Of a DNA stretch of 64,000 nucleotides, positions 8,092 to 10,000 are shown piece by piece. Source of the DNA: a virus. Where the stretch lies: the IMG/VR virus record IMGVR_UViG_3300046660_000488, positions 408,640-472,639 of that record; one strand, written 5' to 3'. How positions within the stretch are numbered: position 1 is the stretch's first letter; every line of letters begins with the position of its first letter. Under the pieces are notes generated by a model. The model worked only from the letters and a program-made list of their open reading frames with translations. It had not been told where the DNA came from and ran no database searches. Position numbers and translations under genes: made by a program.

Positions 8092-8556
8092 CTAAATCGA
8101 ATTCTCGTCCATTTTGGTGATCCGCTTGGCGGCCAAGGACTTTTTGCGTTCCTTTTCCGACTGGTGCGCGCGGTACACAATGCACGGACCCATCCAGCCA
8201 TATGGCCCCACGAACAGTGCGGTGATCAGCCACCAGTCTTGGTTTTTAACGAACCACGGGATGTGGTGCGTGACCGTCAGCATGCCCAGCGTACCGAAGA
8301 ACACGAGCAGCAGAAAAGTCGGGCCGAACGTGATGATCTCAGACCTGATCCACCGGCGCCGAGCATCTTGTTCGTCCGGGGTCACCAGCAGACCAAGCTC
8401 GTCTTCCAGCATGGCCTGTCGTTCGGCCATCGCGCAGACCTTCTTGAACCAGTGGCGGTCGTTGATGCCAATGGGGCACGGTCCGGTCTCCGGCGTCCAC
8501 GAGACGAAATCGGCGACGATCTTCTGAGCCCGGTCGGCCACCACGGGTTTCATCGG
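8092..8556 (-). CDS. membrane protein with two predicted TM helices
   Basis: The start at MKPVVADRAQ has its ATG overlapping the serS stop (ATGA). Hydrophobic stretches are IITFGPTFLLLVFFGTLGML and WWLITALFVGPYGWMGPCIVY. Confidence 0.45.
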   Translation of the reverse strand, partial: PMKPVVADRAQKIVADFVSWTPETGPCPIGINDRHWFKKVCAMAERQAMLEDELGLLVTPDEQDARRRWIRSEIITFGPTFLLLVFFGTLGMLTVTHHIPWFVKNQDWWLITALFVGPYGWMGPCIVYRAHQSEKERKKSLAAKRITKMDENSI

Positions 8557-9827
8557 ATGACTTCCAACCCGTTCATGTAGGGTTGCAGGACGCGGGGCAC
8601 GCGGATCGAGCCATCCTCGTTCTGGTAATTCTCCATGACGGCGACCAGCGTGCGGCCGACCGCCAACCCCGAACCGTTGAAGGTCCGCAGGTAACGGTTC
8701 TTGCCACCGTCGCTGGGCTTGTAGCGGGCGTTCATCCGCCGGGATTGGAATTGCCCGAAGTCCGACACGCTCGAAATTTCGCGGTAGGTCTCTTGGCTCG
8801 GAATCCAAACCTCGATGTCGATGGTCTTGGCGGCCGAGAAGCCGGTGTCGCCGCCGCACAGCAGTACCGTGCGGAACGAAAGCTCCAGAGCGCCCAAGAT
8901 GCCTTGGGCGTTGATCAGGATGAAGTTGTGCTCGTTCGCCGTTGCGCTGTCAGTTATCGAGACCAACTCGACCTTGTAGAATTGGTGCTGGCGAATCAGG
9001 CCGCGCGTGTCACGTCCGGCCGAACCCGCCTCGGCGCGGAAGCATGGCGTCAGAGCCACGTAGCGCAGGGGAAGCTGATCCTCGGGGATGATCTTGTCGC
9101 GGACAAGGTTGGTGATCGAAACCTCGGCGGTCGGGATCAGCCAGTGATCCGACTCCGGAATGTGGAACAGGTCGTCCTTGAATTTTGGAAGCTGGCCGGT
9201 CCCGATCAGAGCGTTGGCGTGGACCATCAGCGGAGGATTGACCTCCATGAAGCCGTTCATGGCGTGGCGGTCGAGCATGAATTGGCCAAGCGCCCGTTCG
9301 AGACGCGCCAGCGGACCCTTGGTCACGCAGAACCGGGCGCCGCTCATTTCAGCCGCCGCCTCGAAATCCATCATGCCGAGATTTTCACCCAGCGTGACGT
9401 GGTCCTTGGGTGTGAACGAGAAATTCGGGCGAAGTAATGGGAAGTCAGAGATCACCTTGTTGTGGCTCTCGTCCACGCCGATGGGCACACCAACGTCCAG
9501 CATGTTCGGGATACGCAGCAAGGTTTCTTGAACTTGCTCGTGCAGCTTGCGCTCGTTGGCCGTGGAATCCGAGAGGAAGCCCTTCAGCGCGGTCATCGAC
9601 TCAATCGCCCGCTGGCGCTCGATGCCTTGAAGCGTTGGGATGCGGGCAGATTCCTCGTTGCGCTGCTGAAGCAGGCTTTCGGAATTTTGAATGGCCTTGC
9701 GGTGCTGCTGGTCCAGATCGACCAGCGTGTTGATCAGTACCGAAGCTTCGGCGTGGGTCATCCCCTTCCGGCCAAGCTCGCTGATGACAGCATGCGGGTT
9801 GTCGCGGACGAATTTCAGATCAAGCAT
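8550..9827 (-). CDS. serS: seryl-tRNA synthetase
   Basis: A 425-aa ORF. It has an N-terminal coiled-coil arm and class-II aaRS core motifs ([37 protein letters not shown]). The overall collinearity with SerRS is clear. Confidence 0.85.
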   Translation of the reverse strand: [425 protein letters not shown]

Positions 9828-9830
9828 ATG

Positions 9831-9882
9831 GCCGGGCCTTTTTACGAGGCCCGACCATAGGGATGTGACTAATTTTCGTCAA
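9831..9882 (-). promoter_or_regulatory. serS leader: sigma70-like promoter (TTGACG-N16-TATGGT) plus a 9-bp stem hairpin abutting the start codon
   Basis: On the minus strand: TTGACG (9882..9877) and TATGGT (9860..9855). Next comes GGTCGGGCC-TCGTAAAAA-GGCCCGGCC directly before the ATG. No free SD is visible. Confidence 0.35.
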
Positions 9883-9892
9883 CCAGAATTGC

Positions 9893-10000
9893 TGGACATT
9901 TGCCGGACATCGCCGGACATGGATCAGCTAGTTAAGTCATTGATTTTTATGAGGGTGGCTCTGGCATCCGAACATTTGCTGGACATTTGCTGGACATCAA
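9893..10000. repeat. two clusters of short direct repeats TTGCYGGACAT (5-6 copies)
   Basis: Cluster one reads gctggacatttgccggacatcgccggacat. Cluster two reads tttgctggacatttgctggacat. The two are separated by an AT-rich stretch. Confidence 0.45.

What the first reader, a model, noticed from the sequence alone, without database searches (positions are those of the whole stretch)
8550..10000. Phage-encoded seryl-tRNA synthetase with its own promoter, a start-codon-sequestering hairpin and iteron-like repeats
A full-length class-II SerRS lies in a T4-like phage. Aminoacyl-tRNA synthetases are rare in phages and mostly occur in jumbo phages. Upstream on the minus strand is a TTGACG-N16-TATGGT promoter. 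It is followed by the 9-bp stem GGTCGGGCC/GGCCCGGCC that ends 2 nt before the ATG and leaves no accessible SD. This is reminiscent of autoregulated aaRS leaders, for example the thrS operator. Further upstream are two clusters of TTGCYGGACAT direct repeats (9893..9920 and 9973..10000).
Basis: partly seen in the sequence, partly recalled or inferred. Interest (0 to 1): 0.6.

Follow-up and report, generated by a model that had tools for sequence, protein, structure and literature searches.

The report
Huge-phage SerRS with transcript-gated leader
A huge phage of alphaproteobacteria carries an intact seryl-tRNA synthetase gene whose own promoter sits inside a hairpin, so only transcripts from that promoter should be translated, as at the phage T4 lysozyme gene; this does not look like synthetase self-regulation.

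Summary
All four observations are real, with corrections. The 425-aa ORF at 8550..9827(-) is a full-length bacterial-type SerRS. It passes the serS equivalog model and has intact motifs 2 and 3.

The window comes from a huge myovirus on a 578-kb contig. Its nearest cultured relatives are Agrobacterium phage Atu_ph07 and Sinorhizobium phage Phosso. SerRS sits at the same position, after a MazG-like gene and near a phage tmRNA, in at least five related contigs. The phage sequences form their own clade beside alphaproteobacterial SerRS.

The promoter is TTGACG-N17-TATGGT (not N16). It is one of three same-type, correctly placed intergenic promoters in the window.

The hairpin has 13 bp, extensible to about 27 bp. 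It buries an AAGG Shine-Dalgarno-like motif and the AUG. It is the most stable start-region fold of 64 genes.

The -10 hexamer is the start of the 5' arm, so transcripts from this promoter cannot form the hairpin. That contradicts a thrS-like autoregulated leader and matches the T4 gene e/soc/49/I-TevI logic.

Five of six relatives lack the leader.

The 11-bp repeats flank the window's only IHF-consensus site. Similar paired arrays occur in other alphaproteobacterial phages. Their function is unresolved.

The parts
8550..9827 (-). Seryl-tRNA synthetase gene (425 aa), bacterial type, start [10 protein letters not shown]
   Evidence: full-length TIGR00414 match at 453 bits. Motif 2 ([25 protein letters not shown]) and motif 3 ([19 protein letters not shown]) are intact when aligned to PDB 6hdz and 2dq3.
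9827..9859 (-). 13-bp hairpin. 5' arm TATGGTCGGGCCT at 9859..9847, loop CGTAAAA at 9846..9840, 3' arm AGGCCCGGCCATA at 9839..9827. The 3' arm holds the SD-like AAGG (9840..9837) and the A of the ATG.
   Evidence: repeat I1.: -25.6 kcal/mol, z = -5.1; most stable of 64 gene-start regions.
9806..9880 (-). Extended imperfect helix of about 27 bp. The -35/spacer region pairs with codons 1-8 of SerRS. It includes two G.U pairs, which are valid only in the sense RNA.
   Evidence: 111-nt fold at -40.7 kcal/mol, z = -4.9, 0 of 200 shuffles.
9854..9882 (-). P2, a sigma-70-type promoter: TTGACG (9882..9877), N17, TATGGT (9859..9854). The predicted start is about 9847..9845, inside the hairpin loop.
   Evidence: It is one of only three TTGA-N17-19-CTATNNT sites in the window (expected 0.32). 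All three are intergenic, in sense orientation, and 26-32 nt upstream of a start codon.
9889..9920 (-). Repeat cluster 1: ATGTCCGGCG / ATGTCCGGCAA / ATGTCCAGCAA. It ends 6 nt upstream of the -35 hexamer.
9933..9945 (-). IHF-consensus site AATCAATGACTTA in the 44-bp spacer between the clusters (spacer 57% A+T)
   Evidence: the only WATCAANNNNTTR match in 64 kb on either strand; spacer composition.
9965..9997 (-). Repeat cluster 2: ATGTCCAGCAA / ATGTCCAGCAA / degenerate ATGTTCGGATG. It starts on the stop codon of the upstream small ORF.
9997..10215 (-). Small upstream ORF (about 70 aa). Its start overlaps the stop of the MazG-like gene. It is the last gene of the upstream operon that would read into the leader.
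   Evidence: It has no family match, so its coding status is less certain.
10203..11156 (-). MazG-like pyrophosphatase fusion gene, the conserved left neighbour of SerRS in related huge phages
13369..13397 (-). P1 (TTGAGA-N17-TATGAT), a same-class promoter heading the upstream operon 13342..9997
   Evidence: No terminator-like site lies in an intergenic position between P1 and the leader.
7763..8099 (-). Phage-encoded two-piece (permuted) alphaproteobacterial-type tmRNA. It lies downstream of SerRS and a 153-aa membrane-like ORF (8092..8553).
   Evidence: RF01849 at 114 bits, RF04321 at 121.7 bits. It is conserved in relatives.

Best explanation
The gene encodes a working bacterial-type SerRS. 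A lineage of huge alphaproteobacterial myoviruses took it from an alphaproteobacterium long ago and has kept it in a translation-related island: MazG-like gene, small ORFs, SerRS, tmRNA.

In most relatives SerRS is simply the next cistron of the upstream operon. In this phage a 169-bp non-coding module separates them, and SerRS has its own host-type (sigma-70-like) promoter, P2.

The DNA from the -35 hexamer to the -10 hexamer is complementary to the SD-like motif, the AUG and the first eight codons. RNA that reads through from the upstream operon (promoter P1 at 13397) therefore folds into a 13-bp core, extensible to about 27 bp. This fold buries the ribosome-binding site, so SerRS is not translated from it.

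RNA started at P2 begins in the loop. It lacks the 5' strand, has an open initiation region, and is translated.

The hairpin thus insulates SerRS synthesis from upstream transcription and makes it depend on P2 alone. This is the logic shown for T4 genes e, soc, 49 and I-TevI.

The two triplets of 10/11-bp ATGTCCRGCAA repeats, with the IHF site between them, are a protein-binding array. The same kind of array is found at unrelated positions in other alphaproteobacterial phages. It abuts the -35 of P2 and may regulate it or block read-through. It is not specific to SerRS, and its binding protein is unknown.

Shown: the sequence features, the fold energetics, homology, synteny and phylogeny. Inferred: the transcription start site, read-through from P1, translational silencing, enzyme activity, and protein binding to the repeats.
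For: SerRS is intact.

The phage is huge and its relatives are known: TerL 56-57% identical to Phosso and Atu_ph07; 578-kb contig.

Synteny and clade: SerRS follows the MazG-like gene in L003, L113, L114, L115 and L118. NJ bootstrap is 93.5 for the clade of window, L003, L114, L115 and P0008, which is sister to alphaproteobacterial SerRS. The tmRNA is conserved at the locus.

Promoter class: three sites against 0.32 expected, and 0 of 100 shuffles reach three. All three are intergenic, in sense orientation, and 26-32 nt from a start codon.

Hairpin. Energetics: (z = -5.1 and -4.9). It ranks first of 64 gene starts, at -25.0 against a mean of -11.7 +/- 4.5 kcal/mol.

A P2-started RNA is unusually open: 196-198 of 200 shuffles fold at least as well.

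The hairpin has no T-tract, whereas this phage's ordinary terminators do.

L113 has a second, non-homologous 10-bp hairpin over the SerRS SD. It is preceded by TTGACC-N17-TAGTTT, with the 5' arm in the spacer.

The T4 precedent is described in PMC3014915, section 29.

Arrays. Related paired arrays occur in L010 (the same 415-kb contig as L114), L022, Caulobacter phages CcrBL10 and CcrBL9-like, and Sphingobium phage Lacusarx.
Against: No transcription start site, read-through or translation data exist; everything at the RNA level is in silico.

P2 scores only 9 of 12 in the generic scan. That scan finds no overall excess of promoter-like sites (5 against 4.9 expected). The three-site pattern was defined after the sites had been seen.

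The leader is not conserved in five of six relatives, so covariation cannot be tested. The -10 of the L113 promoter is weak (8 of 12).

P1 and P2 look like the same promoter class. This leaves no obvious temporal switch like the early/late switch of T4.

The hairpin arms (ATGGTCGG and ATGGCCGG) resemble the repeat unit. The palindrome could therefore be a DNA operator rather than an RNA structure.
Confidence: 0.5

Rival explanations
1. DNA-level operator. The 13-bp inverted repeat over the -10, the start site and the start codon, together with the upstream ATGTCCRG arrays, binds one regulator. An IHF-induced bend brings the sites together, and the regulator represses or activates P2. On this reading the RNA hairpin is a by-product.
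For: The arms read ATGGTCGG and ATGGCCGG, one or two mismatches from the repeat unit. Eight degenerate units cluster in 170 bp. ATGGCCGG/TGGCCGGAT units terminate the arrays in L010, L022, CcrBL10 and CcrBL9. The arm centres are 20 bp apart. The unique IHF site lies between the arrays.
Against: The T/C difference between the arms is a valid G.U pair only in the sense RNA. The structure extends into about 14 further imperfect pairs, with another G.U, reaching codon 8; this is typical of RNA and not of an operator. L113 has a hairpin of unrelated sequence at the same place. The degenerate motif is common in the window, with 47 hits.
Confidence: 0.17
2. The hairpin marks the 3' end of the upstream operon, as a weak terminator or as a barrier to exonucleases. 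It could instead be an RNase III processing site. Its overlap with P2 and the SerRS start would then reflect genome compaction only.
For: It lies exactly at the operon boundary. The extended 27-bp duplex is long enough for RNase III. A terminator followed by a promoter occurs at 3585..3516.
Against: No T-tract follows the stem, and the terminator scan does not call it. The phage's real terminators do have T-tracts. A 3'-end hairpin has no need to pair with the AUG and with eight codons of the next gene.
Confidence: 0.13
3. The repeat/IHF module is a cis-acting replication origin or a partition (centromere-like) site. It happens to lie upstream of SerRS, and the promoter and hairpin evolved only to restore or insulate SerRS expression after it was inserted. 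This is compatible with the best explanation for the hairpin.
For: There are two arrays with near-helical period around an A+T-richer spacer that holds the window's only IHF site. There is one such locus in the 64-kb window, one locus returned for the 415-kb contig, and one matching place per Caulobacter phage record. In the related 415-kb phage the array sits elsewhere, not at SerRS. In unrelated viral contigs, arrays of the same unit lie in or next to DnaB-loader, primase or helicase genes.
Against: No initiator or Par gene is adjacent. Only one weak DnaA-like box is present. The spacer is only 57% A+T. Shuffled 8-mers give 7 and 10 triple arrays in IMG/VR against 18 for the real unit, so the association with replication genes holds for tandem arrays in general and not for this motif. 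GC skew turns at about 13.4 kb, not here.
Confidence: 0.2
4. One reading: SerRS binds its own leader hairpin and represses its own translation, as at the thrS operator.
For: A stable hairpin covers the SD-like motif and the AUG of an aaRS gene.
Against: Transcripts from the proposed promoter lack the 5' arm. No tRNA-like element is present. The loop is not Ser-like, and from established knowledge SerRS recognises the long variable arm and the acceptor stem, not an anticodon stem-loop. The leader is absent in five of six relatives.
Confidence: 0.04
5. Ser-codon attenuation. Two mini-ORFs lie inside the repeats: 9997..9947 (MSSKCPANVRMPEPPS) and 9920..9879 (MSGDVRQMSSNSG, ending in the -35 hexamer). 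They would sense seryl-tRNA supply and remodel the hairpin.
For: Reading the sequence directly, the ORFs have 3 of 16 and 4 of 13 Ser codons. The first starts on the upstream stop codon (TGATG).
Against: The second mini-ORF has no SD. The Ser codons follow from the repeat unit itself (ATG TCC AGC), and the same unit occurs in phage loci without SerRS. A ribosome stopped at 9879 would open only the outer helix.
Confidence: 0.03

Closest known systems
T4 genes e (lysozyme), soc, 49 and I-TevI: initiation-region hairpins with a nested promoter (reviewed in PMC3014915, section 29)
   Same: The SD and/or AUG are sequestered in a helix in long read-through transcripts. A promoter lies in the DNA that encodes the 5' strand, so its transcripts lack that strand and are translated.
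   Different: Here the nested promoter has sigma-70-type -35 and -10 hexamers, not the T4 late TATAAATA element, which has no match in the window. The -10 hexamer itself pairs with the bases around the AUG. The regulated gene is an aaRS. No early/late distinction between the two promoters is evident. Nothing has been tested experimentally.
E. coli thrS operator (translational autoregulation by tRNA mimicry; from established knowledge)
   Same: It is a structured leader next to the RBS of a class II aaRS gene.
   Different: The thrS operator is part of the translated mRNA and mimics the tRNA-Thr anticodon arm. Here the promoter-proximal mRNA lacks the structure, there is no tRNA mimicry, and the leader is not conserved.
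aaRS and tmRNA genes of huge phages (Al-Shayeb et al. 2020, PMC7162821)
   Same: This is a phage of more than 200 kb that encodes an aaRS related to, but distinct from, the host clade, together with a tmRNA and tRNA-like genes.
   Different: This is a specific syntenic SerRS lineage in Atu_ph07/Phosso-related alphaproteobacterial phages. The two cultured relatives lack SerRS.
Iteron or centromere arrays around a bend site or promoter, such as R1 parC, P1 parS with IHF, plasmid oriV iterons and lambda attP arm sites (from established knowledge)
   Same: There are two clusters of 10-11-bp direct repeats flanking a short spacer with an IHF consensus, and one locus in the sequence available.
   Different: No cognate binding protein, initiator or Par gene has been identified. 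In R1 parC the promoter lies between the clusters, whereas here it lies after them. The function is untested.
Unannotated paired ATGTCCRGCAA arrays in Caulobacter phages CcrBL10, CcrRogue and CcrBL9-like (Dolichocephalovirinae) and in Sphingobium phage Lacusarx
   Same: They share the same unit, a two-cluster layout and a TCAAT-containing spacer, and they lie in non-coding regions.
   Different: The phage families and neighbouring genes differ. The orientation relative to downstream genes varies. No function has been described in the papers I could read.

Membership tests
Bacterial-type class II seryl-tRNA synthetase (TIGR00414 serS) | End-to-end match above the curated equivalog cut-off | tested here: met
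   453.4 bits against a cut-off of 301.65, over model positions 1-418 of 418.
Bacterial-type class II seryl-tRNA synthetase (TIGR00414 serS) | N-terminal coiled-coil tRNA-binding arm plus a class II core with motifs 2 and 3 and the serine-pocket TAEV | tested here: met
   PF02403 over residues 1-109 and PF00587 over 226-401. [26 protein letters not shown] and [12 protein letters not shown] are conserved.
Bacterial-type class II seryl-tRNA synthetase (TIGR00414 serS) | Serylation of tRNA-Ser | not testable with these tools
   This needs an aminoacylation assay. No tRNA-Ser gene lies in the 64-kb window.
T4 gene e-type transcript-specific translational gating | A helix sequesters the SD and/or the AUG | tested here: met
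   This is in silico only.
T4 gene e-type transcript-specific translational gating | A promoter lies within the DNA encoding the 5' strand, so its transcripts lack that strand | tested here: inconclusive
   The geometry is met: the -10 occupies 9859..9854, inside the arm at 9859..9847. The start site has not been mapped.
T4 gene e-type transcript-specific translational gating | Upstream transcripts read into the gene | tested here: inconclusive
   Genes are tightly packed from P1 (13397) to 9997, with no intergenic terminator-like site. No RNA data exist.
T4 gene e-type transcript-specific translational gating | The nested promoter is a T4 late promoter (TATAAATA, gp55-dependent) | tested here: not met
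   the window has no TATAAATA. The nested promoter is of the -35/-10 type. It works like the T4 case but is not the same promoter class.
thrS-type autoregulatory operator | The structure is present in the mRNA made from the gene's own promoter | tested here: not met
thrS-type autoregulatory operator | The leader mimics an identity element of the cognate tRNA | tested here: not met
   Searches give no tRNA-like or Rfam match. The loop is CGUAAAA.
Rho-independent terminator | A GC-rich stem followed by a U-tract | tested here: not met
   One search does not list it. The tail is TGCTTGAT.
Replication-origin iterons | Tandem direct repeats at helical period next to an A+T-rich region or bend site | tested here: met
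   The spacer is only 57% A+T.
Replication-origin iterons | An adjacent or cognate initiator gene, DnaA boxes, or origin activity | tested here: not met
   The neighbours are the MazG-like gene, a small ORF and SerRS. There is one box with 2 mismatches. Origin activity cannot be tested here.

The most novel reading that the evidence does not exclude
The paired ATGTCCRGCAA arrays with a central IHF site may be the cis site (origin or centromere) of an undescribed maintenance or replication system. Giant alphaproteobacterial phages would share it: this clade, the Caulobacter Dolichocephalovirinae, and Lacusarx. Such a system could underlie the episomal pseudolysogeny reported for the Dolichocephalovirinae (PMC12195562). 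The SerRS promoter-in-hairpin would then have evolved to insulate a translation gene from that nucleoprotein complex.
Probability: 0.12. Interest if true: 0.7.

Novelty: new variant of a known kind. Interest (0 to 1): 0.42.

Why it matters
The result has three uses.

First, it shows that a SerRS lineage has been inherited vertically within a clade of huge alphaproteobacterial phages. It sits beside a phage tmRNA, which adds a concrete syntenic example to the general observation that huge phages carry translation genes.

Second, if the gating model holds, the trick of placing a promoter inside the inhibitory hairpin would not be confined to T-even late genes. It would be a more general way for phages to uncouple one cistron from an operon, here using a host-type promoter.

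Third, the repeat/IHF module is a recurrent, unannotated element in cultivable Caulobacter and Sphingobium phages. Its function could therefore be tested directly in those systems.

Tried and rejected
- Close relatives in the phage collection: none. There is no megablast match. The 'phage' SerRS hits are unrelated records at 47-48% identity or less.
- Look-up of the source contig by exact protein failed.
- Rfam and ARAGORN found nothing in the leader.
- The idea that the ATGTCCRG unit is a specially widespread motif was weakened by controls. Shuffled 8-mers give 7 and 10 triple arrays against 18 for the real unit. The diverse low-GC hits (L011, L017 and others) are probably coincidental.
- A shared protein flanking the arrays: none among the window, L010, L022, CcrBL10, CcrBL9 and Lacusarx.
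- Stop-codon recoding was considered because relatives carry tRNA(CUA). It is not supported in the window: TAG ends 11 of 64 genes, and treating TAG as sense gains almost nothing.
- T4 late promoter: absent.
- CtrA or DnaA boxes in the leader: only a half-site and a box with 2 mismatches.
- Literature on phiCbK and the Dolichocephalovirinae does not mention the arrays.
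Full report
**What the window is.**
PHROG scans of the large ORFs find a tail sheath, a tail tube, TerL, a gp32-like SSB and a UvsX-like recombinase. TerL is 56-57% identical to those of Sinorhizobium phage Phosso (469 kb) and Agrobacterium phage Atu_ph07 (490 kb). There is no nucleotide-level match in the phage collection. The SerRS protein is recorded on a single contig of 578,292 bp. The window therefore comes from a huge myovirus with T4-like core genes, most probably infecting an alphaproteobacterium. 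'T4-like' is only loosely right.

**The gene.**
- The ORF at 8550..9827(-) encodes 425 aa.
- It matches Seryl_tRNA_N (residues 1-109) and the class II core (226-401).
- It matches the serS equivalog TIGR00414 end to end, at 453 bits against a cut-off of 301.65.
- It aligns over its full length with solved bacterial SerRS structures (6hdz, E = 1e-117; 2dq3).
- Motif 2 ([25 protein letters not shown]), the PTAEVS serine-pocket segment and motif 3 ([19 protein letters not shown]) are all intact.
- Nothing suggests a pseudo-enzyme. Enzyme activity itself is inferred.

**Origin and conservation.**
The best homologue, P0002 at 66% identity, lies on a 21-kb metagenomic contig (L003) that is syntenic with the window. 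It carries a MazG-like gene (68% identical) and the 604- and 359-aa proteins (71% and 84%).

A search with the MazG-like neighbour found more than 1,000 homologues, many on contigs of 200-570 kb. Looking up several of them gave the following.
- SerRS follows the MazG-like gene in L113, L114 (a 415-kb contig), L115 and L118.
- SerRS is absent there in L116, L117 and L140.
- Atu_ph07 and Phosso also lack SerRS.

In an NJ tree with Kimura distances and 200 bootstraps, window, L003, L114, L115 and P0008 form a clade with 93.5% support. Adding L118 gives 67.5%. The clade is sister to alphaproteobacterial SerRS, to which each phage protein is only about 52-59% identical. NJ on long branches is not decisive, although the synteny supports the same conclusion.

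**The promoter.**
- The generic scan lists TTGACG-N17-TATGGT at 9882..9854. That scan finds no overall excess of promoter-like sites (5 against 4.9 expected).
- Two better sites lie in the only other intergenic gaps of the leftward gene block that contain such a site. They are TTGACA-N16-TATGAT at 3543..3516, just after a canonical T-tract terminator and followed by GAGGAG-N6-ATG, and TTGAGA-N17-TATGAT at 13397..13369, followed by GGAGA.
- The shared form TTGA-N17-19-CTATNNT occurs exactly three times in 128 kb of sequence (both strands), against 0.32 expected. No shuffle out of 100 reaches three.
- All three sites are in sense orientation, with the -10 ending 26, 26 and 32 nt before a start codon.
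- I defined the pattern after seeing the sites, so the statistic is generous. Their positions are still hard to attribute to chance.
- I call them P1 (13397), P2 (SerRS) and P3 (3543).
- From memory, CTAT-type -10 elements fit the rhizobial sigma-70 consensus. I did not test that.

**The hairpin.**
- The inverted repeat has 13-nt arms: TATGGTCGGGCCT (9859..9847) and AGGCCCGGCCATA (9839..9827). The loop is 7 nt. The single arm difference is a U.G pair in the sense RNA.
- The 3' arm contains AAGG (9840..9837), the only SD-like motif, and the A of the AUG.
- A 56-nt RNA folds at -25.6 kcal/mol (z = -5.1).
- With more flank, the -35/spacer region pairs with codons 2-8. This gives about 27 pairs at -40.7 kcal/mol (z = -4.9, 0 of 200 shuffles).
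- Among 64 predicted gene starts in the window, the SerRS start region (-40..+13) is the most stable, at -25.0 against a mean of -11.7 +/- 4.5 kcal/mol.

- The -10 hexamer is the first six bases of the 5' arm. With the usual spacing the start site falls at 9847..9845, in the loop.
- An RNA starting there folds at only -6.2 kcal/mol, and 196-198 of 200 shuffles fold at least as well. Its initiation region is therefore unusually open.
- The promoter and the hairpin cannot act on the same transcript. This removes the basis for a thrS-like operator.
- ARAGORN and Rfam find nothing in the leader.
- From established knowledge, SerRS does not read an anticodon stem-loop.

**What the anatomy fits.**
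It matches the arrangement documented for T4 genes e, soc, 49 and I-TevI. There, long transcripts sequester the ribosome-binding site. A promoter in the DNA that encodes the 5' strand gives transcripts that lack that strand and are translated (PMC3014915, section 29).

Here the upstream genes from 13342 to 9997 are packed or overlapping behind P1, and no intergenic terminator-like site lies between them. Read-through into the leader is therefore likely, though not shown.

One difference is clear. The nested promoter is of the -35/-10 type, and the window has no TATAAATA element. This case works like the T4 examples without being the same promoter class. It is also unclear what distinguishes P1 activity from P2 activity in time.

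**Conservation of the leader.**

| Locus | Upstream of the SerRS start |
|---|---|
| L003 | 12 nt after the preceding ORF |
| L114 | 51 nt, with a plain GAGGA SD |
| L115 | 5 nt after the preceding ORF |
| L118 | overlaps the MazG-like gene |
| L139 | 12 nt after the preceding ORF |
| L113 | 10-bp hairpin over the GAGGG SD; see below |

The start regions of L003, L114, L115 and L118 are not unusually structured.

L113 has something comparable but of unrelated sequence. A 10-bp hairpin (CCGCCCTCTG / CAGAGGGCGG) covers the GAGGG SD and ends 5 nt before the ATG. It is preceded by TTGACC-N17-TAGTTT, and the 5' arm lies in the promoter spacer. That -10 is weak, so this is supportive rather than conclusive.

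The leader is thus a recent, lineage-specific addition and not a conserved aaRS operator.

**The repeats.**
- TRF and the repeat finder confirm two arrays. On the minus strand they read ATGTCCGGCG / ATGTCCGGCAA / ATGTCCAGCAA (9920..9889) and ATGTCCAGCAA / ATGTCCAGCAA / ATGTTCGGATG (9997..9965).
- They are 76 bp apart start to start.
- The first array ends 6 nt before the -35 hexamer.
- The second array begins on the stop codon of the upstream small ORF.
- The 44-bp spacer is 57% A+T, against 41% for the window.
- The spacer holds AATCAATGACTTA, the only match to the IHF consensus WATCAANNNNTTR on either strand of the whole window.
- There is no other cluster of the unit in the window.

**The repeats elsewhere.**
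An exact-pattern scan of IMG/VR found triple arrays of the unit in 18 loci. Several lie in or beside DnaB-loader, primase or D5-helicase genes. Two shuffled 8-mers gave 7 and 10 loci. Such arrays are therefore common for any unit, and most of those hits say nothing specific about this motif.

The informative matches share the 11-mer, the two-cluster layout, accessory TGGCCGGAT units and a TCAAT-containing spacer.
- L010 is on the same 415-kb contig as the SerRS-bearing L114 (same metagenome and contig length), but at a different place. There the array lies upstream of an ORF and a tRNA cluster.
- L022 is on a 239-kb contig. Its array lies 280 bp from a tRNA.
- Caulobacter phages CcrBL10 and CcrRogue, and the CcrBL9-like phages, carry arrays in non-coding regions.
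- Sphingobium phage Lacusarx carries an array next to a tyrosine recombinase.

The module is thus a recurring element of alphaproteobacterial phages and is not tied to SerRS. Its partner protein is unknown, and no protein is shared among the flanks. It could regulate P2, block read-through, or be an origin or partition site. I cannot decide among these.

The hairpin arms (ATGGTCGG and ATGGCCGG) resemble the unit. This keeps a DNA-operator reading of the palindrome alive. The sense-specific G.U pairs and the long imperfect extension favour RNA.

**Verdict.**
The observations are confirmed with corrections: the spacer is N17, the stem has 13 bp and reaches the AUG, and the phage is huge. The thrS-like interpretation is not supported.

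The best-supported model is a functional, clade-conserved phage SerRS whose translation in this phage is restricted to transcripts from its own promoter by a promoter-in-hairpin gate. Next to it lies a separate protein-binding repeat/IHF module of unresolved function.

Phage aaRS and tmRNA genes in huge phages are already known (PMC7162821), and the gating logic is known from T4. The finding is therefore of moderate interest. The repeat module is the least understood part and the most open to experiment.

Noticed in passing
window 7763..8099 (-): A phage-encoded two-piece (permuted) alphaproteobacterial-type tmRNA: RF01849 at 114 bits and RF04321 at 121.7 bits. ARAGORN missed it. It lies just downstream of SerRS and a 153-aa membrane-like ORF. 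It is conserved at the same locus in L003, L114, L115 and L117; L117 lacks SerRS.
   Followed up: partly
window 48393..48459, 48791..48860, 49361..49420 (all -): Three tRNA-like elements with good acceptor, D and T arms. In the two Rfam alignments the anticodon loop is reduced to about 4 nt. ARAGORN reports the third as having a 2-nt 'anticodon'. They cannot decode, and their role is unknown (perhaps processing signals or decoys).
   Followed up: partly
L010 4701..5135 (415-kb relative) and L022 739..810: Relatives carry tRNA-Ser(UGA), an 88-nt class II tRNA with a CUA (amber-reading) anticodon, a 72-nt tRNA(CUA), and two tRNAs of 107-110 nt with about 35-nt insertions. A phage SerRS could charge a class II suppressor. 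In the window itself stop-codon usage is ordinary (TAG 11, TAA 27, TGA 26).
   Followed up: partly
L114 11015..12532: The SerRS of the 415-kb relative has a C-terminal extension of about 80 aa that is absent from the window protein and from bacterial SerRS.
   Followed up: no
window 9933..9945 (-): This is the only IHF-consensus match in the whole 64-kb window, and it lies exactly between the two repeat clusters. TCAAT-containing spacers occur in the related arrays of CcrBL10, CcrBL9, L010 and L022.
   Followed up: partly
window 3516..3600 (-): A textbook unit: stop codon, a T-tract terminator (GGAGCCCTCGGAAGCAATTCCGGGGGCTTTTGCTTG), an extended -10 promoter (TTGACA-N16-TGcTATGAT), then GAGGAG-N6-ATG. 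It is a useful reference for this phage's normal expression signals.
   Followed up: yes
window 9969..10015: A second inverted repeat (CACTTGCTGG / CCAGCAAATG on the minus strand) brackets the stop codon of the upstream small ORF and the first repeat unit.
   Followed up: no
window 10203..11156 (-): The MazG-like N-terminal domain is fused to a C-terminal domain of about 200 aa without a Pfam match. The fusion protein has more than 1,000 homologues, many on contigs of 200-570 kb, so it is a good marker gene for this huge-phage group.
   Followed up: partly
L121 (Sphingobium phage Lacusarx 86.6-87.0 kb): TGTCCAGCAA/TGGCCAGCAA units lie on both sides of a tRNA-like fragment, next to a tyrosine recombinase gene. 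There they look like integrase arm-type sites around an attP core.
   Followed up: no
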